This document shows, piece after piece, positions 6,063 through 62,156 of a stretch of 64,000 nucleotides of DNA. Under the pieces are notes generated by a model that saw only the letters and a list, made by a program, of their open reading frames with translations, had not been told where the DNA came from and did no database searches. The first letter of the stretch is position 1; every line of letters begins with the position of its first letter. The translations under genes and the position numbers were made by a program. The DNA comes from Candidatus Kaiserbacteria bacterium (GTDB taxonomy: Bacteria > Patescibacteriota > Minisyncoccia > Phycocordibacterales > Phycocordibacteraceae): the NCBI GenBank assembly GCA_963699165.1, contig OY969413.1, positions 212,310 through 276,309 on the forward strand. Direction: 5' to 3'.

Positions 6063-6118
6063 GGGGTTTGGGTGCCATTGGTTTCCCATTAAGATACTCG
6101 TATATGAAGGATTGTTTG

Positions 6119-7162
6119 TCAATTCATTGTACGCGTCCAGTACTTTTGGCAGTCCCCGACGGTTAATGTACACACAATATACCGCAAGGGGGACACCATG
6201 CCGAGCGACTGGTGCGGGCGTTTGGTGTTGTACCAGATCAGCCAGTCGACAAGCTTCAGATTGAAGGAATGAATATCGTCCCGCAGCAGGCCCCGATTCA
6301 GCATGATGAAGTCCTCGGAGACGGTGCGATTGAATCGTTCGACGTGGGCATTCATCTTGGGAGTGCGGGGGCGGGTGTGAAAGTGCGTGAGCCCGAGTTC
6401 GGCACAGGCATCCTCGAAGTGTTTGGCGAACTCGCTCCCGTTGTCGGTCTGCAACTCGTCGATATCGAAGGGGCAAACCTCGATGACTCGGCGAAGGAAG
6501 TCGTCCGCGCTTCTCGACGAGTGGTTCGTATACGCGCCCGCAAAGGCGAACTTCCGCTCCACGTCCACTGCCGTGAGGACGTACCGCTTCACGCCGTCGA
6601 TGAAGCGGACGACGGTATCGAGCTCCATGCCGCGCTTGCCGGTGCGGCGAAGCTTGGTACGGCGTTTCTGCGGTGTTTCCGTGTGATTGCCCGTACGTGC
6701 GTGGAACGAGAGCCGGCTCTGCTGCGGGAGCAGACCGCGGTTCTTCAAATCCAGAATGACCCGCCCAACGTATGACTCCGACACGGAGTACCCTTCTTCG
6801 CGCAGGAGAACGGCAAGCTTTGCTTTCCCAAGCCGGGGATGCGCCTGTCGTTCGCGGATGATGAAATCCTCGACCTCGGGCAGAACAGTCCTCCTTCGAC
6901 GCGCCTTCGGCGCAGTGCTCTTCGGGTCAAGTGCATCAATGCGGCCCTCGTGGGCTTTGAGTTCCTCCTTCCAGCGATACAAGGTGCGCTCCGAGGTGCC
7001 AAAGGCGTCGTATGCGGCCTCCGTCCCGTGCATGTCCCAGAATCCCAATATCTTCACCCGTCTGTCGACTTCCTTTGGTTTCCGCATATGCCGCAATCGT
7101 ATCGTCCTTTCCCACATGCTCAACCAGCCCTTCGTACCCCTGAAATTGCTTCTGATGCGCAT
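6119..7162 (-). CDS. IS481-family DDE transposase (HTH + rve integrase core); ORF terminates in flanking DNA
   Basis: 347 aa with DDE/rve hallmarks (TDNGSEF, HTRPRTPKMNAHVERFNRT). The last in-IS codon is the final ACA of the element; the stop is supplied by flank DNA (MN* here). Confidence 0.85.
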   Translation of the reverse strand: MRIRSNFRGTKGWLSMWERTIRLRHMRKPKEVDRRVKILGFWDMHGTEAAYDAFGTSERTLYRWKEELKAHEGRIDALDPKSTAPKARRRRTVLPEVEDFIIRERQAHPRLGKAKLAVLLREEGYSVSESYVGRVILDLKNRGLLPQQSRLSFHARTGNHTETPQKRRTKLRRTGKRGMELDTVVRFIDGVKRYVLTAVDVERKFAFAGAYTNHSSRSADDFLRRVIEVCPFDIDELQTDNGSEFAKHFEDACAELGLTHFHTRPRTPKMNAHVERFNRTVSEDFIMLNRGLLRDDIHSFNLKLVDWLIWYNTKRPHQSLGMVSPLRYIVCTLTVGDCQKYWTRTMN

Positions 7163-7206
7163 ATATCCTCGGTTATGAGGACTGCCAAATGTATCTGAAC
7201 TTATGC
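6128..7206 (-). mobile_element. IS481-family insertion sequence, copy 1 of 3 (~1079 bp, imperfect ~28-bp terminal inverted repeats, no target duplication at this copy)
   Basis: Identical (one coding difference) to 22926..24004 and 61070..62148. Ends are TGTACGCGTCCAGTACTTTTGGCAGTCC ... GGACTGCCAAATGTATCTGAACTTATGC. Flanks ATTCAT / AGCCCT do not match. Confidence 0.85.
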
Positions 7207-7408
7207 AGCCCTTGAGAGAAATCGAAACTGTTTTGCCATAAAATATGGCGTACAGACTGGTTTTTATGGGAATCAAATTGCATTCGCGCATCATTGATTT
7301 GCCATATCCAATCTGCCTTTCGGCATATGCATTTGAAAAAACACGGTGCGCGGCACGTGCGTAGCTTTTCGCTGTAATACGTGTCTGTGGATAACGTCCT
7401 ATAGGGAA

Positions 7409-7454
7409 GTGGGGCAAAGTGGCATATACTTCACTACTAGTGGGATGAAGTGGG
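7409..7454 (+). promoter_or_regulatory. Two pairs of MraZ-box-like direct repeats (GTGGG-N5-GTGGC and GTGGG-N5-GTGGG) upstream of mraZ, followed by a TTGACA -35-like hexamer
   Basis: GTGGGgcaaaGTGGC at ~7409-7423 and GTGGGatgaaGTGGG at ~7440-7454; TTGACA at ~7468. MraZ is known to bind GTGGG direct repeats with 5-nt spacers in dcw promoters. Confidence 0.45.
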
Positions 7455-7581
7455 CTAAGACGATTTTTGACAAAAATCGTCTGCCCGTCAAATCCGAAAG
7501 GATTTGAGTAGGGAAACGGGAGTGGTGGCCTGTTTCCTGCAAAAGTTCCCGCGATAGAGCCGCTCCCCGCTCAAAATATTT

Positions 7582-8010
7582 ATGTTCATCGGAGAATACC
7601 AACATGTGCTCGATTCGAAAAACCGAATCTCGCTTCCGGCAAAATTCCGGAAGGATCTTGGCCGCGCGGTTGTCATGACGCGCGGCCTTGATCATTGCCT
7701 TTTTGTGTATCCGAAGAAATCGTGGGCGAAGGAAGCCGAAAGCCGTGCGGAACACGCGGCTGGTACGGCGGCGGCGCGCGGCCTTGCCCGTCTTTTTCTT
7801 GCAGGCGCTATGGATACCGGTGTCGATACTTCGGGGCGCGTTCTCATTCCCGACCATTTGAAAAGTTTCGCCGGTCTCAAGAGCAAAACCGTCATCGCCG
7901 GTGTCGCAAATCGTATCGAAATTTGGGATGCCGAAGCATGGCAGGCCTACACAACTGCTATCGAGCGCGATGCGGACGACTTCGCCGAGAAGCTTGGCGA
8001 CAAAAACTGA
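7582..8010 (+). CDS. mraZ: Transcriptional regulator MraZ
   Basis: 142 aa with duplicated MraZ/SpoVT-AbrB-like halves (DSKNRISLP ... SGRVLIP). First gene of the dcw cluster. Confidence 0.9.
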   Translation: MFIGEYQHVLDSKNRISLPAKFRKDLGRAVVMTRGLDHCLFVYPKKSWAKEAESRAEHAAGTAAARGLARLFLAGAMDTGVDTSGRVLIPDHLKSFAGLKSKTVIAGVANRIEIWDAEAWQAYTTAIERDADDFAEKLGDKN

Positions 8011-8011
8011 T

Positions 8012-13029: not shown

Positions 13030-16000
13030 ATGCCGTCGCGTCGTCGCTTTTCCACACTACCTACACTCGTTTTAATACTCTCTCTTGCGCCGCTTGCTGC
13101 GCAAGCGGCGCTGTATGCCCCCGGTGCAACTCTCGACCCTGCCTGTGGTCCCACCGATCCCAATTGTGGTGTAGCCACTACTACGATTTCAGGCACCATC
13201 ACAATGAACGGAAGCATCATTCCGTCTGTTGCAAATACATACTCGCTCGGTACTGCGCAGAACACATGGAAAGACGTGTATGTAGGTCCGGGTTCATTGT
13301 ATGTGAATGGACAGGAGGTTTTGTATACCGACCCATCGCACAATGTGAATGTGAGTGCGGATGTGAACCAGGACTTGATTTTACAGACGAGCGGCACGGG
13401 AGACATTCAACTAAACCCAAGCGGAACCGGCGGATTGATTTTGCTCAAAGGAAATGTGCAGCTTTCAGCAGGGAAGACTTTGCGCAGTTCCGATGGAACA
13501 CCGCTCCAGTTTAGTGACGGCATTCAAGCAGGCAATCTCGCACTTCAGGCAAACAAGCTTGCCGCGGCAAATACAAATGGCAGTCTCGAATTTGCATCGC
13601 TTGGACTCGGTGCCGTGTACGTGAGTCACGGGAATTTCGGCATCGGCACCACTTCGCCCCTCGCCGCCCTCGCTGTCTCGGGCGGCGCCTCCATCGGTTC
13701 CGACTACAACTTCGCCGCGCCAAGTAACAGCCTCATCGTCGAAGGCCTGGTCGGTATTGGCACCACCAGTCCTTCGCAATCGCTTTCAGTAAATGGTCGC
13801 GTGTACAGTTCTGGCGGTTTCCAATTCCCAGACGGAACAATTCAAACCACCGCCGCCTTCGGCGGCGGTGCCACCTCAACTCTCCTCTCCGACTCCAACA
13901 CCTTCTCCGGCCTCGACTCATTTACAAATGCGAGCAGCAACTTCGCAGGAACTTGGCAGGGGAAAGCGCTTTCATATTTTCAAACCGCTCTTGGATACAC
14001 TCCATACAACGCAACCAACCCAAACAACTACATCCCTCTTACCGCTCTTTCGGCAGGCACCGGCATCTCATACAACAACACTACGGGCCAAATCACCAAC
14101 ACCGGCATCACTTCCAACACCGGCAACTGGGCCGGCACGTGGCAGACATATTCTCCTGCATCCTTCCAACCGGCAGGAGCATATGCAACCTTCGGGTATC
14201 CGTTCCCATCAGGCGCAACAACAACGGCACTTACAATCGACGGCGCAACATTTGCCGCAGGTTCAACAGGCAACGTCGGCATTGGGACGACGAGTCCGAC
14301 ATCTCCTTTGCAAATTGGTGTAGATAGCTTTACTACGCCAGATTTGTTAATAGGAAGTGGTGCGAATGTTGGGAACTTTATTTCTTTGTCAGGTAACAGA
14401 GGTATTATAGGTGTAAATCCTTCGAGCGGGCAATTCTCCCTTACAGCTGGGTCTGGAAAAGCTTTTGCATTTTACGTAAATAGTACAAATGCGCCAGAGA
14501 CAGGCACTCAAGCTTTGATTGTACAATCAAATGGCAACGTCGGCATCGGCAATACGTCGCCCTCCTACAAACTCGACGTATCGGGCTTCATCAACACCGA
14601 CCAATACAGCGGATACAATCAGGCGGGGAACACAGTGCTGTATGCGAGCACAACAAACAACTCGCTTGCCATTGGCGCTTCACAAGCAGCTGCGTGGATG
14701 TCAGCGTCTTCGACGCAGTGGTATAGCGTCGCAATTGGAAGTGGCGCACTTGCGACGACTCCGACAAGTGCTGGGGCACAATACAATACGGCGGAGGGCT
14801 ATCAGGATTTGAATCACAACACCACTGGCTCCTACAACTCCGCACAGGGAGCGAATGCCCTCTACAACAACACCACTGGCTCCTACAACTCCGCACAGGG
14901 GTACAAAGCCCTCTACTACAACACCACCGGCTCATACAACTCCGCACAGGGGTTCTACGCCCTCCAAAACAACACCACTGGCTCCAACAACTCCGCACAG
15001 GGTAATTCCGCCCTCCACTCCAACACCACTGGCTCCAACAACTCCGCACAGGGTCAGGCCGCCCTCTACTCCAACACCTCGGGCAATCAAAACTCAGCGC
15101 AAGGTGCGAACTCCCTCTCCTCCAACACCACTGGCTCCTACAACTCCGCACAGGGTAATTCCGCCCTCTACTCCAACACCACTGGCAACTACAACTTCGG
15201 ACTTGGTTACCAGGCAGGCTATGGCGACGGCACCAATGCCGACAACCGCTCCGTCATCGACAACTACATGACCTTCATCGGTACATACTCGTCGCGCGAC
15301 GCTTCGGTGGCTTCCACAACTGCACTTAGCAAAAGCATCGCCATCGGATACAACGCGAAAGTCGGATGCTCGAACTGCCTTGTGCTCGGTGGGACGGGTG
15401 CGGATGCGGTGAATGTGGGGATTGGCAATGTCTCTCCCTCATACCCACTCGACGTATCCGGCTTCATCAACACCGACCAATACAGCGGGTACAAACAAGC
15501 GGGGAATACGGTGCTGTATGCAAGCACGACAAACAATTCTCTCGCCATCGGGGCATCGAGCGCGGCAGCGTGGATGGCGGCATCTTCGACAAATTGGTAT
15601 AGCGTCGCAATTGGAAGTGGTGCGCTTGCGACGACTCCGACAAATGCGAGTGCGCAATACAACACTGCTGAGGGCTATCAGGCGTTAAATCACAACACCA
15701 CTGGCTCCAACAACTCCGCACAGGGGTACAAAGCCCTCAACGCCAACACCACTGGCTACAACAACTCCGCACAAGGTTTAAACGCCCTCTTATCAAACAC
15801 CACTGGCTCATGGAATGTCGCACAGGGAGTGAATTCCCTTTCCCACAACACCACAGGCTCCAACAACTCCGCACAGGGTTATCAAGCCCTCTACTTCAAC
15901 ACCACTGGCCAACAAAACTCCGCACAAGGTGTGAGCGCCCTCTACGCCAACACCACTGGCTCATACAACTCCGCACAGGGAAAAGGAGCCCTCTACTCCA

Positions 16001-17085
16001 ACACCACTGGCTCATACAACTCCGCACAGGGTTTTAACGCCCTCTCCTCCAACACCACTGGCTCATACAACTTCGGACTTGGTTACCAGGCAGGCTATGG
16101 CGACGGCTCCAACGCCGACAACCAGTCGGTCATCGACAACTATATGACCTTCATAGGAACGTACTCGTCGCGCGACGCTTCGGTGGCTTCCACAACTGCG
16201 CTAAGCAAAAGCACAGCAATCGGATACAACGCGAAAGTGGGGTGCTCGAACTGCCTTGTGCTTGGTGGGACGGGTGCGGATGCGGTAAATGTCGGCATCG
16301 GGACGACGACGCCATACGCACGATTGATGGTTTGGGGACCGGACACCGCTTCCACTTCCGCCTTTGCGATTGTGAACAGCGCATCCACCACCGTCTTCTC
16401 AATCTTCGACAACGGCAACGCCACCTATTCCGGCTCCATCTTCCAATCGTCCGATGCACGACTAAAGTCCAACGTTACTCCGCTTGATGCCTCTTCTTCT
16501 CTTGCCGCCATCAACGGACTCACGCCTGTCTCATACAACCGTCTCGACCAGAACGACTCGGGTACGAACTTGGGCTTCATCGCGCAAGCCGTACAGAGCG
16601 TGTTCCCCGAACTCGTCTCCACCACCTCTCCCACGGTACTTACCCCGGGCGGCACCCTCACGGTCAACTATGTGGGACTCATCGCGCCTCTCGTGAAGGC
16701 CGTGCAGGCGCTTTCGGGGCAGGTGAGTGCGCTTGCCTCGACGGTGACGGGTTTTGCGCAGTCGTTTACTTCGCAGAATATTACGGCAAAACAGCAACTC
16801 TGTGTCGGCGATACCTGCGTCACTGAAAGCCAGTTGAAAACGCTTTTGCAAAATGCGGGGCAGGGGAGCGGACAATCCGCGGCCGCCGCAGCGGCGGCCG
16901 CGGGCTCGGCATCGGGAAATTCGCAAGACGCGGCCGCAGGCCAAATCAAAGTCGATTCGGCAAGTTCTACCGAACAGCAAACACCTGCTGATTCCACAGC
17001 GACTTCAGCTCCTGTGACGGGGACTACAACTTCGCTTGATATAATCTCACAGACGGATTCGTCAGTTTCAAACACTACTAACTAA
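13030..17085 (+). CDS. Giant secreted repeat protein (1351 aa): signal peptide, GIGTTSP-type fibre repeats, 17-aa NTTGSxNSAQGxxALYx beta-roll-like repeats in two duplicated blocks, C-terminal phage-tail-fibre-type intramolecular chaperone (peptidase S74-like, SDARLK) domain
   Basis: N-terminal MPSRRRFSTLPTLVLILSLAPLAAQA signal. SSDARLKSNVTPLD...LTPVSYNRLD...GFIAQAVQSVFPELV matches the self-cleaving chaperone of endosialidase/tail-fibre proteins (Ser ... Lys five residues later). Ala/Ser/Gly-rich C-terminal tail. Confidence 0.85.
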   Translation: MPSRRRFSTLPTLVLILSLAPLAAQAALYAPGATLDPACGPTDPNCGVATTTISGTITMNGSIIPSVANTYSLGTAQNTWKDVYVGPGSLYVNGQEVLYTDPSHNVNVSADVNQDLILQTSGTGDIQLNPSGTGGLILLKGNVQLSAGKTLRSSDGTPLQFSDGIQAGNLALQANKLAAANTNGSLEFASLGLGAVYVSHGNFGIGTTSPLAALAVSGGASIGSDYNFAAPSNSLIVEGLVGIGTTSPSQSLSVNGRVYSSGGFQFPDGTIQTTAAFGGGATSTLLSDSNTFSGLDSFTNASSNFAGTWQGKALSYFQTALGYTPYNATNPNNYIPLTALSAGTGISYNNTTGQITNTGITSNTGNWAGTWQTYSPASFQPAGAYATFGYPFPSGATTTALTIDGATFAAGSTGNVGIGTTSPTSPLQIGVDSFTTPDLLIGSGANVGNFISLSGNRGIIGVNPSSGQFSLTAGSGKAFAFYVNSTNAPETGTQALIVQSNGNVGIGNTSPSYKLDVSGFINTDQYSGYNQAGNTVLYASTTNNSLAIGASQAAAWMSASSTQWYSVAIGSGALATTPTSAGAQYNTAEGYQDLNHNTTGSYNSAQGANALYNNTTGSYNSAQGYKALYYNTTGSYNSAQGFYALQNNTTGSNNSAQGNSALHSNTTGSNNSAQGQAALYSNTSGNQNSAQGANSLSSNTTGSYNSAQGNSALYSNTTGNYNFGLGYQAGYGDGTNADNRSVIDNYMTFIGTYSSRDASVASTTALSKSIAIGYNAKVGCSNCLVLGGTGADAVNVGIGNVSPSYPLDVSGFINTDQYSGYKQAGNTVLYASTTNNSLAIGASSAAAWMAASSTNWYSVAIGSGALATTPTNASAQYNTAEGYQALNHNTTGSNNSAQGYKALNANTTGYNNSAQGLNALLSNTTGSWNVAQGVNSLSHNTTGSNNSAQGYQALYFNTTGQQNSAQGVSALYANTTGSYNSAQGKGALYSNTTGSYNSAQGFNALSSNTTGSYNFGLGYQAGYGDGSNADNQSVIDNYMTFIGTYSSRDASVASTTALSKSTAIGYNAKVGCSNCLVLGGTGADAVNVGIGTTTPYARLMVWGPDTASTSAFAIVNSASTTVFSIFDNGNATYSGSIFQSSDARLKSNVTPLDASSSLAAINGLTPVSYNRLDQNDSGTNLGFIAQAVQSVFPELVSTTSPTVLTPGGTLTVNYVGLIAPLVKAVQALSGQVSALASTVTGFAQSFTSQNITAKQQLCVGDTCVTESQLKTLLQNAGQGSGQSAAAAAAAAGSASGNSQDAAAGQIKVDSASSTEQQTPADSTATSAPVTGTTTSLDIISQTDSSVSNTTN
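14520..16300 (+). repeat. Tandem direct duplication of ~880 bp (two ~294-aa blocks, ~85-90% identical) inside the giant gene, each containing ~9 copies of a 51-bp (17-aa) repeat
   Basis: Blocks ~14520-15410 and ~15410-16300 align nearly base for base (NVGIGNTSPSYKLDVSGFINTDQYSGY... vs NVGIGNVSPSYPLDVSGFINTDQYSGY...). Both end in ...CSNCLVLGGTGADAVNVGIG. Confidence 0.8.
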
Positions 17086-17088
17086 TAT

Positions 17089-17592
17089 ATGATATATATG
17101 CACGACAAGACTCGACTTAATTTTATACAGCGTTTTTTTAGCTTCATCGGTCGCAGTTTTATTTGGATTGTTCTTTTGTTTGCAGCTGCAATTCTTTTCG
17201 GCGTCTATGAACTTGGACGATACAGCGTGTATCAAGCCAATCCGGGGCTCGCAAATGCAGAGCAGGCAAACAGCATACTTGAAAATGTGGGCAAGCTCAT
17301 CAACTTGCCAAATGAGACTCCAACGATGGCAACAATCAAAGACGCAATCAGCGCTAAGCAAGGACAGCCTTTTCTTGTAGATGCCGAGGACGGCGATGTT
17401 CTTATTGTATATCCCAATGCGGCGCAGGCGTTTTTGTATCGCCCGTCGGTGAATAAACTTATTAACGTTGGGCCGGTGACCAACGGGGGAAACTCGCCCG
17501 CGATACAGCAGCCGTCCGCACCTGCCAAATCTACGGCAGAGGCGACATCGAGCAATGACACAGGCGCTACCAGCACCAAGACGAAGAAATAG
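17089..17592 (+). CDS. Hypothetical membrane-anchored protein
   Basis: 167 aa, one N-terminal TM helix, Ser/Thr/Ala-rich C-terminus. Starts 3 nt after the giant gene stop. Confidence 0.45.
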   Translation: MIYMHDKTRLNFIQRFFSFIGRSFIWIVLLFAAAILFGVYELGRYSVYQANPGLANAEQANSILENVGKLINLPNETPTMATIKDAISAKQGQPFLVDAEDGDVLIVYPNAAQAFLYRPSVNKLINVGPVTNGGNSPAIQQPSAPAKSTAEATSSNDTGATSTKTKK

Positions 17593-18451
17593 TGCGGTGC
17601 GCGCTTTAACGCGCGCCGCACTTGCATTCCTATTTGCGGCTCCGTTTGCGTATGCTTCTTCGAGCAATATGGATGCAGCCAATAAATATGCATGGAGCAA
17701 TATCGGCGGATGGATCAATTTCGCGCCCGCAAACAGCACGGTCATCGTTACTGATTCTGCCATTACCGGCTACGCTTGGAGCGCAAACGACGGATGGCTC
17801 AATCTTTCGCCTGCGCAGGGCGGCGTAAGGAACGACGGACTAGGACATCTTTCGGGATTTGCATGGGATTCCGCTACCGGTTGGGTTTCATTTAACGGAG
17901 TAACAATCGACTCTTCCGGCAAATTTCACGGCATGGCAACGGGCGCAAACGATTATGCAATCAACTTTGACTGTTCTTCATGCGACGTTGTTACGTTATG
18001 GCGGCCGGCATCGTCTCATCCCTCTTCCGGTCAGGGCGGAGGCGCAATTTCGCCGGTTACTGGAGGCAGTTTGCCCGCAGTACCGTTAACGCTATTTCAG
18101 GCAATACCATTAACGGCGAACCCCCAAACTCAGTTCCCCAGAACAGCGACCGGTCAAGAAACCACAGCGGCTCGAAGTGCATCAACGGCTAAAAACCCCT
18201 CCGCAGGCGCAGTGCGTCAAACAAGTTCGACGACGAGGGCATTACGCAAGCCAACTGGTGGCTCCGCGGCCGCAACTACAACTCAAATTAAAGCCAAGAC
18301 GCCGACTCTCGCCGCAAGCACGACCGCTGAAAACAGGGTTACAACTAGCGGTTTCTATATTGGGATTGTCCCGATTCCTGCATTTGTGATTTCTCTTGCC
18401 AATAATGTCGTCTCATTCTTTAAACCATTTTTTATGGGATTGAATAAATGA
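17555..18451 (+). CDS. Hypothetical secreted protein with three W-x-N-x-GW-x-NF-type repeats and Thr/Ala-rich C-terminus
   Basis: 298-aa ORF. A GTG at ~17597 would give a clean signal peptide (VRALTRAALAFLFAAPFAYA) and remove the overlap with the upstream gene. Repeats: AWSNIGGWINF, GYAWSANDGWLNL, GFAWDSATGWVSF. Confidence 0.5.
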   Translation: MTQALPAPRRRNSAVRALTRAALAFLFAAPFAYASSSNMDAANKYAWSNIGGWINFAPANSTVIVTDSAITGYAWSANDGWLNLSPAQGGVRNDGLGHLSGFAWDSATGWVSFNGVTIDSSGKFHGMATGANDYAINFDCSSCDVVTLWRPASSHPSSGQGGGAISPVTGGSLPAVPLTLFQAIPLTANPQTQFPRTATGQETTAARSASTAKNPSAGAVRQTSSTTRALRKPTGGSAAATTTQIKAKTPTLAASTTAENRVTTSGFYIGIVPIPAFVISLANNVVSFFKPFFMGLNK

Positions 18452-18470
18452 AGTTTTCTAATACCGAGTT

Positions 18471-18926
18471 TTAACCCAACAACCCCTCCACAACCGCCTT
18501 CACGTCTCCACCGTCCGCTTTTCCTTTCAAATCCTTCATAAGCGCGCCGATAAATTTACCGGAGTCCGCTTTGCTCGAAACGCCAAGTTCCGCCATTTTC
18601 GCCTTCGCGACAACTTCGATTTCCTCGCGGCTCATTTGAGAGGGGAGATAGGATTCGATAATTGCGAGCTCCTCTTTCTCGGGTTCCGCCAAATCGTTTC
18701 GCGATGCCTTTTCAAACTGCTCGATTGAGTCCTTGCGCTGATTTGCCGCACGTTTCAACACCGCAATTGATTCCTCATCCGTGAGAAATTCGTCCGGCTT
18801 GCGCTTCTTGGACACGACTTCGTTGGTCATTGCCGTTACTAGCGACCGAAGCGTTCGCAGCTTTACTTCGTCTTTTGCTCGCAATGCGTCGGGAATAGAA
18901 CGCTTAAGATTTTCGTGGATAGACAT
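18471..18926 (-). CDS. yqeY: GatB/YqeY domain protein
   Basis: 151 aa starting MSIHENLKRSIPDALRAKDEVKLRTLRSL...; strong match to the YqeY family pattern. The six-frame ORF extends further upstream into the divergent intergenic region. Confidence 0.8.
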   Translation of the reverse strand: MSIHENLKRSIPDALRAKDEVKLRTLRSLVTAMTNEVVSKKRKPDEFLTDEESIAVLKRAANQRKDSIEQFEKASRNDLAEPEKEELAIIESYLPSQMSREEIEVVAKAKMAELGVSSKADSGKFIGALMKDLKGKADGGDVKAVVEGLLG

Positions 18927-18945
18927 GTTTGTGATTGTAACACGC

Positions 18946-19061
18946 CAGTCGCCTTGCACTCGAAATGAGCGCGGTATTTTTCTGCTGAAAAATCCGCTCC
19001 TCTTACGCCGTCGCGTTGCGAGACCCATTTCTCGTGCAAGGCGACTGGCGTTATACTTACA
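18946..19061. promoter_or_regulatory. ~30-bp imperfect inverted repeat (TGTAACACGCCAGTCGCCTTGCACTCGAAATG / reverse complement) bracketing the yqeY-rmuC divergent intergenic region
   Basis: Arms at ~18946-18977 and ~19026-19061, two mismatches plus one small indel. Each arm lies just upstream of one divergent start codon. Confidence 0.35.
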
Positions 19062-19063
19062 GT

Positions 19064-20116
19064 ATGAGCATTTTACAGGTCGGCATCCTTATCATCGTTT
19101 TGGTAACTGTTCAGGGAATTGGGCTGTATTTCATAAGCCGCCGGCGCGAAGCGCCGGCGGAAAATGGGGGCATGGTTCTTCTGCAACAACAGATGCAGGA
19201 AATGGCGCGAACGCTCGACGCGCGCGTCGCTGAATCCTCCCGCGCCATGCAGGAAAACTCGCACCGCCAATTTTCCGAAAGCTCGCGCTTGATTAAAGAA
19301 ATCACGCAAGAAGTCACCTCGGTCAAAGAAATCGGCCGTCAGACCCAAGGATTTGCCGAACAGCTTCAGTCGTTGCAGGACTTGCTCAAGAATCCGAAAC
19401 AGCGCGGCATTCTCGGCGAGTATTATCTTGAAACCGTTTTGAAAAACGTGCTTCCGCCCGGCATGTACAAAATCCAGTATCCGTTTAAAAACGGCGAAAT
19501 CGTTGACGCTGCCGTTTTTGTAAGCGATAAAATTGTCCCGATTGATTCGAAGTTTTCACTCGATAACTACAACCGATTCGTCAGCACGCAAGTGGGGAGC
19601 GCCGAGCGCGCGGTCGCCGAAAAGGCGTTTGTGAACGACCTCAAGCTGCGCATTCAAGAAACGGCAAAATACATTCGTCCGGACGAAGGTACGATGGACT
19701 TCGCTTTCATGTTTATTCCGTCCGAAGGCATTTACTACGATCTTTTAACAAATCAAGTCGGGGCCGGCGAAGAAGAAAATCTCATACAAAGAGCGGCGGG
19801 GAAGTATAAGGTCATCATCGTTTCGCCGACGTCATTTCTCGCATATTTGCAGACGGTAATGCAGGGATTAAAAGCCCTTCAAATCGAAGAAAAAGCCGTC
19901 GAAATCCAAAAGCGAGTAGGCGAGCTCGGGAAGCATATCGCTTCATATCAAGAATTTTACAGAAAACTCGGCGTCTCTCTTGGCACGTCTGTAAGCCACT
20001 ACAACGCGGGCTATAAAGAACTTGGTAAAATCGACAAGGATGTATACCGCATTGCGGAGTCGCGAATCGGCATCGAACCCGAGCTGCTTGAGAAGCCGTC
20101 GGAAGGACTTGACTAA
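19064..20116 (+). CDS. rmuC: DNA recombination protein RmuC
   Basis: N-terminal TM, long coiled coil, C-terminal RmuC nuclease-like domain (KYKVIIVSPTSFLAYLQTV). Internal ATG chosen (MSILQVGILIIV...). Confidence 0.85.
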   Translation: MSILQVGILIIVLVTVQGIGLYFISRRREAPAENGGMVLLQQQMQEMARTLDARVAESSRAMQENSHRQFSESSRLIKEITQEVTSVKEIGRQTQGFAEQLQSLQDLLKNPKQRGILGEYYLETVLKNVLPPGMYKIQYPFKNGEIVDAAVFVSDKIVPIDSKFSLDNYNRFVSTQVGSAERAVAEKAFVNDLKLRIQETAKYIRPDEGTMDFAFMFIPSEGIYYDLLTNQVGAGEEENLIQRAAGKYKVIIVSPTSFLAYLQTVMQGLKALQIEEKAVEIQKRVGELGKHIASYQEFYRKLGVSLGTSVSHYNAGYKELGKIDKDVYRIAESRIGIEPELLEKPSEGLD

Positions 20117-20118
20117 AT

Positions 20119-20147
20119 AGCAGAGCCGTGCTATTTTCTCTTTAGAA
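20119..20147 (+). terminator. Rho-independent terminator after rmuC (atagca-gagccg-tgctat + TTTCTCTTT)
   Basis: 6-bp stem, 6-nt loop, T-rich tail immediately after the rmuC stop. Confidence 0.45.
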
Positions 20148-20194
20148 AGTCGGCGTGCGTCGACATCCGTCCCGTTCGGGACAAGGAGGCCTGC

Positions 20195-20548
20195 GTGTCC
20201 AACTCGAAGAGATCAAAGCTGAATGGAGCGTGTGTGCTTGCCGCTTTTGTGGCGGCGTGCGCGCTCGCTATTTTCTGGCCAATAAATGGTCCCGGTCCTT
20301 TGTATTCGCCGACCGAGCTCACGAACAAGCAAATTCTGGCACGGCTCAAACCGGGCAAGACGGTGACGGTCCGGTTAGAAAAGGGTCGTGTACCGTTTTG
20401 CGCTCGGTACAGGGAGACCGAGATGTCTCCCAACTCACGCGTCGGGGACTTCTATGTGCGGGTCGCGTTCTTTCCGGAAGACGCGTTTCCGGACTATGTG
20501 GACGTCCGCGAGGACGGACACGACATCCAAGCCGGGTGCCACCAGTGA
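20195..20548 (+). CDS. Hypothetical small exported/membrane-anchored protein
   Basis: GTG start preceded by AAGGAGG at -8; N-terminal hydrophobic segment. The 117-aa product looks more protein-like than the overlapping +2-frame ORF 20155..20649. Confidence 0.45.
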   Translation: MSNSKRSKLNGACVLAAFVAACALAIFWPINGPGPLYSPTELTNKQILARLKPGKTVTVRLEKGRVPFCARYRETEMSPNSRVGDFYVRVAFFPEDAFPDYVDVREDGHDIQAGCHQ

Positions 20549-20633
20549 CGGTTGGCTCCCGCAATCAATCAAGCCGCGAGGGTAACTTCGCGGTCTTGCT
20601 ATTTATATGCAACCGTGCTAGATTGGACGAACT

Positions 20634-20951
20634 ATGGAAGTGGCCGTAATCAAGACGGGCGGGAAGCAGTATGTCGTCTCCAAAGGCGATACTATTTCGA
20701 TAGAGAAGCTCCCCGCCGATTTGAAAAAAGGTGACACGGTTGTCTTTGGCGAGGTGCTCCTCGTCGACAACGGCTCGGACACGACCATCGGCGCGCCGAT
20801 TATCAAAGGCGCGGAGGTCAAGGGCACCGTTGTTCTCGCCGGGAAGGCAAAGAAAATTGAGGTGGTGAAATACAAGCCGAAGAGCCGCTACTACAAGCGC
20901 AACGGCCACCGCCAGCCGGTTCTGCAAGTGAAAATCGATTCGATTTCTTAG
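20634..20951 (+). CDS. rplU: 50S ribosomal protein L21
   Basis: MEVAVIKTGGKQYVVSKGDTISIEKL...; canonical L21. Confidence 0.92.
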   Translation: MEVAVIKTGGKQYVVSKGDTISIEKLPADLKKGDTVVFGEVLLVDNGSDTTIGAPIIKGAEVKGTVVLAGKAKKIEVVKYKPKSRYYKRNGHRQPVLQVKIDSIS

Positions 20952-20982
20952 TCATCTCAAAAACTCGAGAGCAAGACCTCAG

Positions 20983-21153
20983 AACCTGTTTCAAAAATAA
21001 CTTTCTGAAATGCCTGGCCGCTGCGAGCCGCCTGTTTCGGCTACGAAGCGCAACGGCTCGCCCTCGCCGTACCTCAGGTATGTCTCGGTCTGCGCCGGCA
21101 CTTCTCGCTCGAAACAGACGGCTCTCGCAAGGCCATTATTTTTGAAACAGGTT
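20983..21153 (+). other. ~170-nt extended nested inverted repeat (perfect 18-bp outer arms AACCTGTTTCAAAAATAA / TTATTTTTGAAACAGGTT with further inner pairing) between rplU and the DEAD-box helicase gene; candidate structured RNA or 5' leader
   Basis: Outer arms at 20983-21000 and 21136-21153. Inner arms GCGAGCCGCCTGTTTCG / CGAAACAGACGGCTCTCGC. No credible ORF. Confidence 0.45.
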
Positions 21154-21205
21154 CCGCAAGGCCTTCGTTTTCGTTTTCTCATTATTTAATTATCTATATA
21201 CATTT

Positions 21206-22564
<1,359 letters not shown>

Positions 22565-22586
22565 AACTCTTCGTATAAAAGCTAAA

Positions 22587-22620
22587 GGGCGCCCTCACAT
22601 TTGTGAGGGCGCCCTTTTTA
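22587..22620 (+). terminator. Rho-independent terminator (GGGCGCCCTCACA-tt-TGTGAGGGCGCCC + TTTTT)
   Basis: 13-bp perfect stem followed by a T-run, 22 nt after the helicase stop. Confidence 0.8.
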
Positions 22621-22856
22621 TGGGCTGACGTCTACGCCGCGACCGCGAGTTTAACCATCGCCGGGCTAAGGAATCTACCTTCTGCATCAAAGACGGCGAC
22701 TCGGTTGCTGAAGCCAACGAACAAGACTTTGTATTTCTTTTCCCCCGAAATCTCGTCGATATGTAGAGTTTGTTTTTCCCAGCCCGCCGAAGCCGGATTC
22801 GTTGGTCCGAAAAGTTCCGCCGTTGAACCGATATACATAAAAAGACCTTACCTTTC

Positions 22857-23960
22857 CTAACTTGTTGAGAAGCAATCCCAACTCGTTAGTAGGTATACAA
22901 CTTTGCAAAAAATTTGTCCAGCTACTGTACGCGTCCAGTACTTTTGGCAGTCCCCGACGGTTAATGTACACACAATATACCGCAAGGGGGACACCATGCC
23001 GAGCGACTGGTGCGGGCGTTTGGTGTTGTACCAGATCAGCCAGTCGACAAGCTTCAGATTGAAGGAATGAATATCGTCCCGCAGCAGGCCCCGATTCAGC
23101 ATGATGAAGTCCTCGGAGACGGTGCGATTGAATCGTTCGACGTGGGCATTCATCTTGGGAGTGCGGGGGCGGGTGTGAAAGTGCGTGAGCCCGAGTTCGG
23201 CACAGGCATCCTCGAAGTGTTTGGCGAACTCGCTCCCGTTGTCGGTCTGCAACTCGTCGATATCGAAGGGGCAAACCTCGATGACTCGGCGAAGGAAGTC
23301 GTCCGCGCTTCTCGACGAGTGGTTCGTATACGCGCCCGCAAAGGCGAACTTCCGCTCCACATCCACTGCCGTGAGGACGTACCGCTTCACGCCGTCGATG
23401 AAGCGGACGACGGTATCGAGCTCCATGCCGCGCTTGCCGGTGCGGCGAAGCTTGGTACGGCGTTTCTGCGGTGTTTCCGTGTGATTGCCCGTACGTGCGT
23501 GGAACGAGAGCCGGCTCTGCTGCGGGAGCAGACCGCGGTTCTTCAAATCCAGAATGACCCGCCCAACGTATGACTCCGACACGGAGTACCCTTCTTCGCG
23601 CAGGAGAACGGCAAGCTTTGCTTTCCCAAGCCGGGGATGCGCCTGTCGTTCGCGGATGATGAAATCCTCGACCTCGGGCAGAACAGTCCTCCTTCGACGC
23701 GCCTTCGGCGCAGTGCTCTTCGGGTCAAGTGCATCAATGCGGCCCTCGTGGGCTTTGAGTTCCTCCTTCCAGCGATACAAGGTGCGCTCCGAGGTGCCAA
23801 AGGCGTCGTATGCGGCCTCCGTCCCGTGCATGTCCCAGAATCCCAATATCTTCACCCGTCTGTCGACTTCCTTTGGTTTCCGCATATGCCGCAATCGTAT
23901 CGTCCTTTCCCACATGCTCAACCAGCCCTTCGTACCCCTGAAATTGCTTCTGATGCGCAT
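22857..23960 (-). CDS. IS481-family DDE transposase (copy 2); reading frame runs 60 nt into flank DNA before a stop
   Basis: Same 345-aa core as copy 1. C-terminus ...WTRT then VAGQIFCKVVYLLTSWDCFSTS from flanking sequence. Confidence 0.8.
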   Translation of the reverse strand: MRIRSNFRGTKGWLSMWERTIRLRHMRKPKEVDRRVKILGFWDMHGTEAAYDAFGTSERTLYRWKEELKAHEGRIDALDPKSTAPKARRRRTVLPEVEDFIIRERQAHPRLGKAKLAVLLREEGYSVSESYVGRVILDLKNRGLLPQQSRLSFHARTGNHTETPQKRRTKLRRTGKRGMELDTVVRFIDGVKRYVLTAVDVERKFAFAGAYTNHSSRSADDFLRRVIEVCPFDIDELQTDNGSEFAKHFEDACAELGLTHFHTRPRTPKMNAHVERFNRTVSEDFIMLNRGLLRDDIHSFNLKLVDWLIWYNTKRPHQSLGMVSPLRYIVCTLTVGDCQKYWTRTVAGQIFCKVVYLLTSWDCFSTS

Positions 23961-24004
23961 ATATCCTCGGTTATGAGGACTGCCAAATGTATCTGAACTT
24001 ATGC
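22926..24004 (-). mobile_element. IS481-family insertion sequence, copy 2 of 3, flanked by 6-bp target duplication AGCTAC
   Basis: Identical to copy 1 and copy 3 apart from the transposase codon noted on feature 61061..62104; flank repeats at 22920-22925 and 24005-24010. Confidence 0.9.
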
Positions 24005-24012
24005 AGCTACGC

Positions 24013-24944: not shown

Positions 24945-24945
24945 G

Positions 24946-38500: not shown

Positions 38501-38516
38501 GGTTTCAGTATACCAA

Positions 38517-39614: not shown

Positions 39615-39621
39615 GGCACGG

Positions 39622-61022: not shown

Positions 61023-61060
61023 GCAGAGCCATATCAATGTAGCAGGTGTCGCTAAAATCG

Positions 61061-62104: not shown

Positions 62105-62148
62105 ATATCCTCGGTTATGAGGACTGCCAAATGTATCTGAACTTATGC
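61070..62148 (-). mobile_element. IS481-family insertion sequence, copy 3 of 3, flanked by 6-bp target duplication AATAGT; inserted 48 nt upstream of infA
   Basis: Identical to copies 1 and 2 apart from one transposase codon (H in copy 3 vs Y in copies 1 and 2). Flank repeats at 61064-61069 and 62149-62154. Confidence 0.9.
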
Positions 62149-62156
62149 AATAGTCC

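What the first reader, a model, noticed from the sequence alone, without database searches (positions are those of the whole stretch)
13030..17085. 1351-aa secreted fibre-like protein with phage tail-fibre-type self-cleaving C-terminal chaperone domain in a housekeeping context
Seen in sequence: signal peptide; six GIGTTSP/GIGNTSP motifs each followed by L-x-V-x-G; two blocks of ~9 tandem 17-residue NTTGSxNSAQGxxALYx repeats; then a segment starting SSDARLKSNVTPLD (Ser, with Lys five residues later) and continuing ...LTPVSYNRLD...GFIAQAVQSVFPELV; then an Ala/Ser/Gly-rich tail. Established knowledge: the S-D-x-R-x-K start and hydrophobic core pattern are the hallmark of the intramolecular chaperone auto-processing domain (peptidase S74) of phage endosialidases and tail fibres/spikes. 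That domain folds a trimeric beta-helix/fibre and then removes itself at the Ser. Inference: this is a trimeric cell-surface fibre, adhesin or phage-receptor-like structure rather than an enzyme. No other phage genes are nearby, so it is either a domesticated tail-fibre module or a native surface filament of a small-genome (possibly episymbiotic) bacterium. The gene sits right after tRNA-Glu and a hairpin-rich non-coding region, a typical landing pad for acquired DNA.
Basis: partly seen in the sequence, partly recalled or inferred. Interest (0 to 1): 0.75.

Follow-up and report, generated by a model that had tools for sequence, protein, structure and literature searches.

The report
Self-cleaving surface fibre of CPR bacterium
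A tiny-genome (CPR/Minisyncoccia) bacterium encodes, among housekeeping genes, a secreted 1351-residue fibre built like a phage tail fibre, ending in a folding domain predicted to cut itself off; the gene heads a conserved three-gene set with two envelope-anchored partner proteins, which makes it a plausible host-attachment device.

Summary
ORF 13030-17085 (+) encodes a 1351-aa protein with a signal peptide, six GIGTTSP-type motifs, a tandemly duplicated 292-aa module (each copy has 8 x 17-aa repeats) and a C-terminal Peptidase_S74 domain (56.9 bits against a cut-off of 22). Ser1141 and Lys1146 are invariant, and the predicted fold matches MyRF-ICA and the endoNF chaperone.

The exact protein is already on record as [quoted passage not shown]. 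The context is housekeeping (dcw genes, tRNA-Glu, yqeY, rmuC) and syntenic with a related genome, so this is not a prophage.

The closest described system is the Bdellovibrio MAT fibres, 13 of 21 of which end in S74. This protein lacks their N-terminal domain.

New here:
- The CPR proteins share a mature N-terminus `YxPGATLDPxCxPTDxxC`.
- They also share a Cys-x4-Cys hairpin and an extension after S74.
- The gene is the first of a conserved three-gene cassette, found with an S74 gene adjacent in 11 of 12 contexts at unrelated loci.
- The two partners are uncharacterised envelope-anchored proteins. One family ends in either a TM helix or a peptidoglycan-binding domain.

Trimerisation, self-cleavage, anchoring and adhesion are inferred, not shown.

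Verdict: a real feature and a new variant of a known kind. Interest 0.6.

The parts
12494..13029 (+). Highly structured 536-nt spacer between tRNA-Glu(CTC) and the fibre start codon. It contains partial copies of the tRNA 3' end and one promoter-like site (12975-13003). Its role is unresolved: 5' leader/promoter region and/or integration debris.
   Evidence: Fold z = -7.5 on the + strand and -6.65 on the - strand. Hairpins with 16-18-nt arms. TCCCCGTGAGGTCACA at 12653-12668 is a 1-mismatch copy of the tRNA end (expected 0.01). T-arm-like copies at 12552-12565(-), 12734-12747(-) and 12830-12843(+). No Rfam family. Promoter-like CTAACA-17-TATCAT.
13030..17085 (+). Fibre gene: 1351-aa precursor. 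It is identical to the NCBI record 'tail fiber domain-containing protein [Minisyncoccia bacterium]'.
13030..13107 (+). Sec-type signal peptide, aa 1-26 (predicted cleavage AQA|A).
   Evidence: Read from the sequence. The same SP-then-motif junction occurs in 13 of the 120 top relatives.
13108..13170 (+). Conserved mature N-terminus ALYAPGATLDPACGPTDPNCG (Cys39/Cys46 loop), aa 27-47. This is the CPR family signature and a candidate docking peptide.
   Evidence: It is present in every complete cassette protein examined, and also in the 824-aa protein of L094, which has no S74 domain.
13171..13638 (+). N-proximal beta-rich module, aa 48-203 (IIPSxDNTYSLGSxxxxWKDVY...). In other CPR proteins it is re-used at internal positions.
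   Evidence: 50-66% identical copies lie inside other CPR proteins. No relative among PDB sequences.
13639..14541 (+). Fibre shaft, aa 204-504, with three GIGTTSP capping-loop motifs (aa 204, 242, 417) and the ...FPDGTIQTTAA segment.
   Evidence: It matches the Bdellovibrio MAT fibre Bd2133 (PDB 8OND) at aa 237-288, E 5e-6. It is 29-40% identical to Bdellovibrionota S74 proteins.
14542..15417 (+). Repeat module A, aa 505-796: capping loop, 8 x 17-aa NTTGxxNSAQGxxALxx repeats, CxxC (Cys780/Cys783).
15418..16293 (+). Repeat module B, aa 797-1088: tandem duplicate of module A. It is predicted as a beta-solenoid with one strand per 17 residues.
16294..16449 (+). Last capping loop (GIGTTTPYARLMVWG) and pre-cleavage strands, aa 1089-1140. 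This is the predicted C-terminal tip of the mature fibre.
   Evidence: 75-87% identical across CPR relatives. The capping loop matches four Bdellovibrio MAT structures.
16450..16794 (+). Peptidase S74 / intramolecular chaperone domain, aa 1141-1255. The catalytic motif is S1141-D-A-R-L-K1146. The predicted scissile bond is S1140|S1141.
16795..16869 (+). Post-S74 Cys-x4-Cys hairpin plus helix (LCVGDTCVTESQLKTLL), aa 1256-1280. In this sample it is largely confined to CPR.
   Evidence: The two Cys are >=90% conserved in alignment A1. Predicted as a beta-hairpin followed by a helix. Present in 10/21 CPR loci against 0/9 Bdellovibrionota and 0/19 Bacteroidota.
16870..17085 (+). Low-complexity Ala/Ser/Thr-rich tail, aa 1281-1351, plus the stop codon. 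There is no hydrophobic anchor.
17089..17592 (+). Cassette gene 2 (orf167 family): N-terminal TM helix, conserved ~85-aa extracytoplasmic domain, Ser/Thr-rich tail ending in KK. Uncharacterised.
17555..18451 (+). Cassette gene 3 (orf298 family): signal peptide, ~115-aa domain with three Trp repeats (YAWSxxxGWINF) and an invariant CxxC, a Ser/Thr/Pro-rich linker and a C-terminal hydrophobic helix. In 5 of 22 relatives a PG_binding_1 domain takes the place of that helix. Its start overlaps the end of gene 2.

Best explanation
The ORF is a chromosomal, Sec-secreted cell-surface fibre of a Minisyncoccia (CPR/Patescibacteria) bacterium. It is assembled from the same building blocks as phage tail fibres/spikes and Bdellovibrio MAT fibres.

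Shown by sequence and model:
- a signal peptide;
- a family-specific Cys-loop N-terminus;
- shaft segments punctuated by six GIGTTSP capping loops;
- two tandem copies of a 292-aa beta-solenoid module;
- a C-terminal S74 intramolecular-chaperone domain with an intact Ser1141/Lys1146 dyad.

Inferred from what S74 domains do in endosialidase, phage T5 pb1, MyRF and Bd3182: three chains are brought into register by the S74 domain, the fibre folds as a trimer, and the domain then cuts the chain between S1140 and S1141. That would leave a mature fibre of about 1114 aa (aa 27-1140) and a 211-aa C-terminal fragment.

Shown by comparative genomics: the gene is the first of a conserved three-gene cassette whose other two products are envelope-anchored extracytoplasmic proteins.

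Inferred: those two proteins dock or assemble the fibre on the cell envelope, perhaps through the conserved N-terminal Cys-loop peptide, and the fibre mediates attachment to host cells or other surfaces.
For: S74 domain:
- Pfam 56.9 bits against a cut-off of 22.
- S1141, D1142 and K1146 are invariant in 29 sequences.
- Profile hits to MyRF ICA, phage fibres, the GA-1 CIMCD and four Bdellovibrio MAT structures.
- Fold matches to 7DC3 and 3GW6 and to 284 viral models.

Phage-fibre homology beyond S74:
- aa 797-1255 aligns at 28-35% identity over more than 80% of its length with Roseobacter phage CRP-1, Pelagibacter phage HTVC111P and SPO1 tail proteins.
- PHROG tail and virion families, E down to 2e-52.

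Bdellovibrio link: PDB 8OND Bd2133. The MAT paper reports surface fibres, S74 self-cleavage of Bd3182 at S782, and the capping-loop motif.

Cellular, not viral:
- Housekeeping neighbours.
- Synteny with GCA_054639835.1.
- A Sec signal peptide.

Cassette:
- Verified orf167 and orf298 homologues flank S74 genes in the window, L006, L089-L093 and L095-L097, always with different surrounding genes.
- The pair overlaps by 29-38 nt, and there is no promoter-like site between the genes.

Anchoring of the partners: a TM helix in orf167, and a TM helix or PG_binding_1 domain in orf298 relatives.
Against: - No trimer model, cleavage assay or localisation data exist for this protein. The AF2 monomer models are only moderate (pLDDT 68.7 and 60.6).
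- The mature fibre has no recognisable anchor of its own.
- The pre-cleavage tip is highly conserved among CPR relatives (75-87%). That is unlike a variable receptor-binding tip, so the binding specificity, if any, must lie elsewhere.
- Cassette relatives carry GDSL-lipase, pectate-lyase-fold or FG-GAP passengers. The cassette is therefore not adhesin-specific.
- Most CPR S74 loci in the 80-locus genome sample lack the partner pair within 6 kb.
- The roles proposed for the two partners rest on gene linkage and topology alone.
Confidence: 0.7

Rival explanations
1. It is a secreted trimeric enzyme (a tailspike-like depolymerase or lyase) that degrades host or environmental polymers, not an adhesin. 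The S74 domain would simply be the folding device.
Confidence: 0.12
2. It is a structural component of the cell envelope, such as a fibrous coat or an S-layer-associated spacer, with no specific binding partner.
Against: The slot is variable between related genomes, and the passengers are mosaic. That pattern is typical of interaction or arms-race proteins, not core structural ones. One genome carries several different cassettes.
Confidence: 0.13
3. It is a remnant prophage or tailocin tail-fibre gene that was acquired at tRNA-Glu and is not used by the cell.
For: The gene lies downstream of a tRNA, and the spacer carries tRNA-3'-end partial repeats. It is homologous to phage fibres. There are IS copies nearby. 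Some cassettes (L095, L097) sit near relaxase, TrwB and AlpA genes.
Against: No phage structural, lysis or integrase gene lies in the 64 kb. The ORF is intact, has a Sec signal peptide and retains the catalytic residues. The conserved cassette occurs in many genomes beside rpoB, secDF, greA, ndk and other housekeeping genes. No att-like repeat lies distal to the gene. IMG/VR holds only distant relatives (26-36% identity), and none reaches the Cys motif.
Confidence: 0.03

Closest known systems
Bdellovibrio bacteriovorus MAT (mosaic adhesive trimer) fibres, S74 subgroup, e.g. Bd3182 (Caulton et al. 2024, PMC10769870)
   Same: Both are chromosomal, signal-peptide-bearing proteins of about 1000 aa from a small bacterium that lives on other cells. 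Both have shafts punctuated by V-G-x-G-x-x-x-P-x-x-x-L capping loops, mosaic modules, and a C-terminal S74 domain with an SDxxxK motif. There are direct sequence matches to PDB 8OND, 8OJN, 8OML and 8OL4, and 29-39% identity to Bdellovibrionota S74 proteins in the shaft, repeat module and cap+S74 region.
   Different: There is no detectable similarity to the conserved ~130-aa N-terminal domain that defines MATs; a short Cys-loop motif stands in its place. The CPR proteins add a Cys-x4-Cys hairpin and a long extension after S74 (median 263 aa from the catalytic Ser to the C-terminus, against 146 aa in Bdellovibrionota). They also come with two conserved partner genes. The calls made on the MAT paper (a term search of its text and supplement) turned up no partner genes and no CPR taxa; the paper was not read in full. 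The host here is a monoderm-type CPR bacterium, not a Gram-negative predator.
Phage tail fibres and spikes with a C-terminal intramolecular chaperone (endosialidase endoNF 3GW6, T5 pb1, S16 gp37 6F45, SPO1 gp2.52, Roseobacter phage CRP-1, Pelagibacter phage HTVC111P)
   Same: The order is the same: repeat block, capping loop, then S74. Identity is 28-35% over about 380 aa. PHROG tail and virion families match. The fold of the chaperone matches.
   Different: This protein has a Sec signal peptide and no virion-attachment N-terminus. The gene is chromosomal, with no phage genes nearby. S74 is not the extreme C-terminus. The cassette includes membrane-anchored partners.
MyRF / ICA domain (eukaryotic membrane-bound transcription factor, PDB 7DC3)
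   Same: This is the best structural and profile match to the S74 core. In MyRF, as here, S74 is followed by further sequence instead of ending the protein.
   Different: In MyRF the part after S74 holds a TM anchor, and cleavage releases the N-terminal trimer from the membrane. Here no TM segment follows S74 in this protein or in any relative checked.
Trimeric autotransporter adhesin heads (YadA-like; CbpF, UspA1, BpaC)
   Different: There is no YadA membrane-anchor domain and no Pfam Hep_Hag/YadA-head hit in this protein. The repeat unit is 17 aa. Trimerisation is assigned to S74 rather than to a beta-barrel anchor. I take a CPR host to lack the outer membrane a TAA anchor inserts into; that is background knowledge, not tested here.

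Membership tests
Peptidase S74 / C-terminal intramolecular chaperone domain (Pfam PF13884) | Significant match to the family HMM above the curated threshold | tested here: met
   aa 1141-1196, E 2.6e-15, 56.9 bits against 22.
Peptidase S74 / C-terminal intramolecular chaperone domain (Pfam PF13884) | Catalytic Ser-Lys dyad in an S-D-x-x-x-K motif at the start of the domain | tested here: met
   S1141-D-A-R-L-K1146. S, D and K are invariant in a 29-sequence alignment.
Peptidase S74 / C-terminal intramolecular chaperone domain (Pfam PF13884) | Fold of solved CIMCD/ICA domains | tested here: met
   Foldseek: 7DC3 E 3.7e-6 (TM 0.68 normalised to the target) and 3GW6 E 4.6e-3. The model's pLDDT is about 80 over the core. 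284 BFVD matches at E<=1e-3.
Peptidase S74 / C-terminal intramolecular chaperone domain (Pfam PF13884) | Autoproteolytic release and chaperoning of a trimer | not testable with these tools
   This needs a multimer prediction or biochemistry. Only monomer AF2 was available.
Peptidase S74 / C-terminal intramolecular chaperone domain (Pfam PF13884) | The domain forms the extreme C-terminus, so the released fragment is about 110-160 aa | tested here: not met
   The distance from the catalytic Ser to the C-terminus is 211 aa here. The CPR median is 263 aa, against 146 (Bdellovibrionota) and 130 (Bacteroidota). The extra length includes the Cys hairpin and tail. This is typical of the family, not strictly defining: MyRF also departs from it.
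Bdellovibrio MAT superfamily | Conserved ~130-aa beta-rich domain directly after the signal peptide (all 21 HD100 MATs) | tested here: not met
   BLASTP of aa 1-203 against nine Bdellovibrionota S74 proteins gives no N-terminal match, although two of those (L010, L034) match each other there and L049 shows the same N-terminal motif. This is a BLAST-level test against relatives, not against the HD100 proteins themselves.
Bdellovibrio MAT superfamily | Capping-loop motif V-G-G/N-pi-x-x-P-x-x-x-L on a beta-helical shaft | tested here: met
   There are six GIG[TN][TV][ST]P...L motifs. They align to 8OND, 8OJN, 8OML and 8OL4.
Bdellovibrio MAT superfamily | Trimeric fibre displayed on the cell surface | not testable with these tools
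   No multimer prediction or localisation data are available.
Prophage / tailocin tail fibre | Embedded among phage structural, lysis or integration genes | tested here: not met
   The neighbours are mraW, ftsL, ftsI, murF, tRNA-Glu, yqeY, rmuC, L21 and a DEAD helicase. The order is syntenic with GCA_054639835.1. No other S74 gene and no phage Pfam hit occur in the 64 kb.
Trimeric autotransporter adhesin (YadA family) | C-terminal YadA-type membrane anchor and Hep_Hag/YadA head repeats | tested here: not met
   Neither the whole protein nor the repeat module gives such a Pfam hit. Only structural resemblance to TAA heads is seen.
CPR three-gene S74 cassette (defined here) | SP + YxPGxTxDPxCxPxDxxC start; S74 + Cys hairpin end; followed by an orf167-family gene and an orf298-family gene | tested here: met
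   The window has all of these features. Nine full triples and one permuted triple were found at unrelated loci.

The most novel reading that the evidence does not exclude
The three genes form a CPR-specific surface-display system. S74 folds trimeric 'passengers' (fibres, lipases, lyases) outside the cell. The orf298-family protein, tethered by a TM helix or a peptidoglycan-binding domain, together with the orf167-family membrane protein, captures the conserved N-terminal Cys-loop peptide and so plants the trimer on the envelope. Fibres such as this one would then be the host-recognition organelles of Minisyncoccia episymbionts. That would be the anchoring step the MAT paper leaves open for Bdellovibrio, and a mechanism of host attachment in CPR other than type IV pili.
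Probability: 0.3. Interest if true: 0.8.

Novelty: new variant of a known kind. Interest (0 to 1): 0.6.

Why it matters
How ultrasmall CPR/Patescibacteria find and hold on to their hosts is largely unknown. The CPR papers I consulted point to type IV pili and unnamed 'adhesins', and none of them mentions S74 or tail-fibre-like proteins.

This locus shows three things:
- CPR bacteria carry a large family of phage-fibre/MAT-like self-processing fibres (at least 983 clusters related to this protein).
- These fibres have features of their own.
- In Minisyncoccia they are genetically tied to two uncharacterised envelope-anchored proteins. One of these belongs to a family of more than 5,600 clusters at 50% identity with no Pfam model.

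That yields concrete, testable candidates for both the attachment organelle and its anchor. It also links three lifestyles that depend on gripping another cell (phage, predator, episymbiont) to one protein toolkit.

Tried and rejected
- Prophage: rejected on gene content and synteny.
- Hep_Hag/YadA and other Pfam models on the repeat region: no hit in this protein or in 14 module homologues. NCBIfam gave only noise.
- PDB sequence searches with the N-terminal module profile and with the repeat module: nothing significant.
- Rfam on the structured spacer, at gathering and at permissive thresholds: only the tRNA plus noise.
- An att-like repeat of the tRNA 3' end distal to the gene: none found. 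The copies all lie inside the spacer.
- A decayed S74 gene in the second variable slot, where the related genome keeps its fibre: none found. That slot holds an IS.
- Close viral relatives of the CPR C-terminal cassette in IMG/VR: only S74-only matches at 26-36% identity.
- MAT N-terminal domain: not found.
- PDB and Pfam searches with profiles of the two partner families: nothing except PG_binding_1 in 5 of 22 orf298 relatives and LytR_C in one distant orf167 relative.
It was repeated with six close sequences, so that sample is biased towards proteins carrying the capping-loop motif.
- The afdb50 fold library was unavailable.
- Literature: no paper in the library links CPR/Patescibacteria with S74 or tail-fibre-like proteins. 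That is absence in this library only.

Full report
OBSERVATION. The ORF exists exactly as described: 13030..17085 on the + strand, 1351 aa. A script confirmed the six GIG[TN][TV][ST]P motifs at aa 204, 242, 417, 505, 797 and 1089. Five are followed by L-x-V-x-G; the one at 417 has L-Q-I-G. It also confirmed two blocks of eight clear 17-aa NTTGxxNSAQGxxALxx repeats (aa 597-732 and 889-1024), SSDARLK at aa 1140 (hence S1141...K1146), four Cys pairs (39/46, 780/783, 1072/1075, 1258/1263) and an Ala/Ser/Thr-rich tail. Tandem Repeats Finder gives period 51 nt and 7.5 copies for each block. The signal peptide (MPSRRRFSTLPTLVLILSLAPLAAQA|A) is read from the sequence only.

ORGANISM AND CONTEXT. The exact protein is on record as 'MAG: tail fiber domain-containing protein [Minisyncoccia bacterium]' on a 993,452-bp contig. 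Minisyncoccia is the class formerly called Parcubacteria/Paceibacteria (OD1) of the CPR. A short-read assembly of the same organism (GCA_049279115.1) matches window 7084-23051 at 100% identity. The neighbours are mraW, an ftsL-like gene, a PBP/ftsI, murF, tRNA-Glu(CTC), then the fibre and two small ORFs, then yqeY, rmuC, L21 and a DEAD-box helicase. Further on come recR, dnaB, cysS and corA (the last four by synteny with the annotated L002 genes, not scanned here), an S41 peptidase, and, read from translated ORF sequences only, dnaK/dnaJ and ribosomal proteins. A related Minisyncoccota genome (GCA_054639835.1; about 70-76% nucleotide identity in the shared genes) has the same backbone, including tRNA-Glu after murF. 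There the slot between tRNA-Glu and yqeY holds a polysaccharide lyase and a 103-aa ORF, and that genome's S74 protein P0017 sits in another slot, between the DEAD helicase/NYN gene and recR, where the window has an IS copy. No phage gene and no second S74 gene occur in the 64 kb. The prophage alternative is therefore rejected.

THE S74 DOMAIN. Pfam PF13884 matches aa 1141-1196 (E 2.6e-15; 56.9 bits against a cut-off of 22). In an alignment of aa 1075-1290 with 28 homologues, S1141, D1142, L1145 and K1146 are invariant. A profile of that alignment finds MyRF ICA (7DC3, 6e-19), phage fibres 8JOV and 6F45, the GA-1 neck-appendage chaperone 3GUD and four Bdellovibrio MAT structures among PDB sequences. 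An AF2 model (mean pLDDT 68.7, about 80 over the S74 core) matches 7DC3 (E 3.7e-6, TM 0.68 normalised to the target) and the endoNF chaperone 3GW6 (E 4.6e-3). It also matches 284 predicted viral structures, mostly annotated as intramolecular chaperone auto-processing domain proteins or tail fibres. By analogy with Bd3182, which cleaves at S782 and whose mature structure ends at A781, the scissile bond should be S1140|S1141. That gives a mature chain of aa 27-1140 and a 211-aa C-terminal fragment. This step is inferred.

WHAT IS PARTICULAR TO THE CPR PROTEINS. First, the mature N-terminus ALYAPGATLDPxCxPTDxxC follows the signal peptide directly in 13 of the 120 best relatives. It is also present in every complete cassette protein examined. 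Second, about 115-120 aa after the catalytic Ser lies a conserved LC[VI]GxTC[VI]TxxQL motif, predicted as a beta-hairpin plus helix. It is followed by Ser/Thr-rich sequence and, in many relatives, by Ig-like domains; none has a TM segment. In a pattern-biased sample of 80 loci from species-representative genomes, the Cys motif occurs in 10 of 21 CPR loci, 0 of 9 Bdellovibrionota, 0 of 19 Bacteroidota and 0 of 4 Proteobacteria. It also occurs once on a 3-kb 'Tepidisphaeraceae' contig and once in an unclassified genome. The median distance from the catalytic Ser to the C-terminus is 263 aa in CPR, against 146 aa in Bdellovibrionota and 130 aa in Bacteroidota. Third, the conserved N-terminal domain of Bdellovibrio MATs is not detectable here.

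THE THREE-GENE CASSETTE. The two ORFs downstream (17089-17592, 167 aa; 17555-18451, 298 aa) have no Pfam match. Local tblastn showed homologues of both directly after the S74 gene of a Paceibacterota genome (L006), where the flanks are different (dnaE downstream). Database searches gave 64 relatives of the first and 105 of the second, often on the same contigs.

- From the orf167 side, 4 of 4 have an S74 protein immediately upstream and an orf298 homologue downstream. They lie next to rpoB/rpoC (L089, the same genome as the window), an MscS-type channel (L090), secD/secF (L091), and PBP2/greA (L092).
- From the orf298 side: L093 is a full triple between tyrS and trpS. L095 has the order orf167-orf298-S74. 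A JGI contig reads 169 aa / FG-GAP+S74 / orf298, with no DNA available to check. L094, a peptidoglycan-binding variant lying between secY and adk, is preceded by an 824-aa protein that has the N-terminal motif but no S74.
- From the fibre side, 2 of 2 (P0040 and P0024) are followed by verified homologues of both small proteins.

In total an S74 gene is adjacent in 11 of 12 contexts, with nine full triples in the same order. The end of gene 2 and the start of gene 3 overlap by 29-38 nt in seven loci. No promoter-like site lies between the window's three genes. HMMs of the two partner domains find strong matches only at these loci. Most CPR S74 loci of the 80-locus sample lack the pair, with weak single matches in Saccharibacteria, Peribacteria and Gracilibacteria. 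The strict cassette therefore belongs to a subgroup. The passengers differ between cassettes: fibre, GDSL lipase, pectate-lyase fold, FG-GAP.

THE PARTNERS. The orf167 family has an N-terminal TM helix, a conserved ~85-aa domain (invariant LP-E-P, PF, LYRP) and a Ser/Thr-rich tail ending in KK; two distant members add LytR_C. An exhaustive profile search finds 6,669 clusters at 50% identity (5,660 at E<=1e-10), so it is a very large family without a Pfam model. The orf298 family has a signal peptide, a ~115-aa domain with three Trp repeats and an invariant CxxC, and a Ser/Thr/Pro-rich linker. It then ends in either a C-terminal hydrophobic helix or, in 5 of 22 members, a PG_binding_1 domain. 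That swap is what one expects of a protein whose job is to hold its N-terminal domain at the envelope. Neither family has a PDB sequence relative.

MECHANISM: WHAT IS SHOWN AND WHAT IS INFERRED. Shown are the domain composition, the catalytic residues, the fold of the S74 core, the cellular non-prophage context, the family-specific termini, the gene linkage and the membrane topology of the partners. Inferred are Sec export, S74-driven trimerisation and self-cleavage, docking of the trimer on the envelope by the partners (possibly through the N-terminal Cys loop, since L094 keeps that motif and an orf298 neighbour while lacking S74), and adhesion to a host or another surface. Adhesion rests on analogy with phage fibres and MAT fibres and on the absence of any catalytic domain. 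It is weakened by the high conservation (75-87%) of the pre-cleavage tip among relatives.

THE 'LANDING PAD'. The spacer 12494-13029 folds far better than shuffled sequence (z -7.5 and -6.65 on the two strands). It contains hairpins with arms up to 18 nt, a 1-mismatch copy of the last 16 nt of the tRNA at 12653-12668 (expected 0.01), and three more T-arm-like fragments in both orientations. The related genome aligns up to about 12565 and again at 12730-12797, so the window has roughly 170-190 nt extra, bounded by a repeat CGGGGAATCGAA. This looks like debris of events at the tRNA. However, nothing marks the far side of the cassette, and the cassette occurs at many loci without a tRNA. Rfam has no match. 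The nature of the spacer stays open.

COMPARISON AND NOVELTY. S74-terminated fibres of cellular origin are known from Bdellovibrio, and the MAT paper's supplement lists similar proteins in Micavibrio, Uabimicrobium and Omnitrophica, but no CPR. NCBI already names this protein a tail fiber domain-containing protein. The protein is thus a member of the S74 family and works like a MAT fibre, but it fails the MAT N-terminal-domain criterion. The CPR-specific termini and the partner cassette were not found in the literature held here. I rate it a new variant of a known kind.

LIMITS. Only monomer models of moderate or low confidence were available, and no signal-peptide or TM predictor was run. The genome scan was biased by the search patterns and capped at 80 loci. 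Only 12 cassette contexts were sampled, and two pairs of them come from the same genomes. Taxon labels of MAG contigs may be wrong.

Noticed in passing
window 12494-13029: The spacer after tRNA-Glu is extraordinarily structured (z -7.5). It holds four partial copies of the tRNA 3' end/T-arm in both orientations and about 170-190 nt that the related genome lacks, bounded by a CGGGGAATCGAA repeat. There is no Rfam match. It could be integration debris, a small hairpin-rich insertion element, or a structured 5' leader.
   Followed up: partly
window 6118-7209, 22926-24007, 61060-62149 (all - strand): There are three copies of a ~1.09-kb rve-family IS (HTH_32 + rve + rve_3), 99.5-99.9% identical, so the IS has been active recently. 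The short-read assembly of the same organism breaks inside the two copies that flank the dcw/fibre segment.
   Followed up: partly
window 22565-24945 vs L002 9336-13564: There is a second variable slot in the conserved backbone, between the DEAD helicase and recR. The window has an IS plus a 140-aa ORF there. The related genome has a NYN gene and its own 1187-aa S74 protein. No remnant of an S74 gene is left in the window's slot.
   Followed up: yes
window 17089-17592 (orf167 family): This small TM protein belongs to a very large family: 6,669 clusters at 50% identity, 5,660 of them at E<=1e-10. No Pfam family matches its conserved core in the 21 members scanned. Linkage to S74 genes was only checked for close relatives (>=45% identity).
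   Followed up: partly
L094 5419-8984 (GCA_054639835.1) and L096 5001-9451: The same region of the ribosomal-protein/secY/adk/map operon holds an N-motif protein without S74 plus a PG-binding orf298 variant in one genome (between secY and adk). In another genome an S74/GDSL cassette with both partners sits just downstream, between map and ndk. This suggests cassette swapping around one conserved site, and that the partnership may depend on the N-terminal motif rather than on S74.
   Followed up: partly
relatives P0012, P0025, P0028, P0030, P0032, P0044, P0049 etc. (regions after S74): Many CPR relatives carry folded Ig-like domains (PF16403-type, or a 'CTLTASPTSV...LSW...FSIDQGIG' domain) after the S74 domain. 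These would lie on the fragment that is cut off and, in phages, discarded. This raises the question whether that fragment has a function of its own in CPR.
   Followed up: no
L039 908-1333 (Candidatus Woesearchaeota contig): A capping-loop + S74 protein (a 399-aa open reading frame, stop to stop) is found on a DPANN archaeon MAG contig. If the binning is right, the toolkit also reaches ultrasmall episymbiotic archaea.
   Followed up: no
L095 1-16939 and L097 1-13651: Two cassettes lie next to mobile-element genes (reverse transcriptase, relaxase, TrwB-like ATPase, AlpA, Mrr). Some cassettes may therefore travel on conjugative or integrative elements.
   Followed up: no
window 17555-17668; L093 3821-4333; L095 7487-8026: There are gene-call problems in the public annotations. 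NCBI starts orf298 113 nt later than the start that is conserved among homologues. The L093 S74 gene call omits an in-frame upstream signal peptide and N-motif. In L095 an orf167 homologue on the + strand was called as a - strand ORF.
   Followed up: yes
window 7901-12381 vs about 37361-40698 (- strand): The cell-division/wall cluster appears split. mraW-ftsL-ftsI-murF lie next to the fibre, while ORFs that look like murG, ftsW and mraY lie about 25 kb away on the other strand. The second group was judged from translated sequences only and was not scanned.
   Followed up: no
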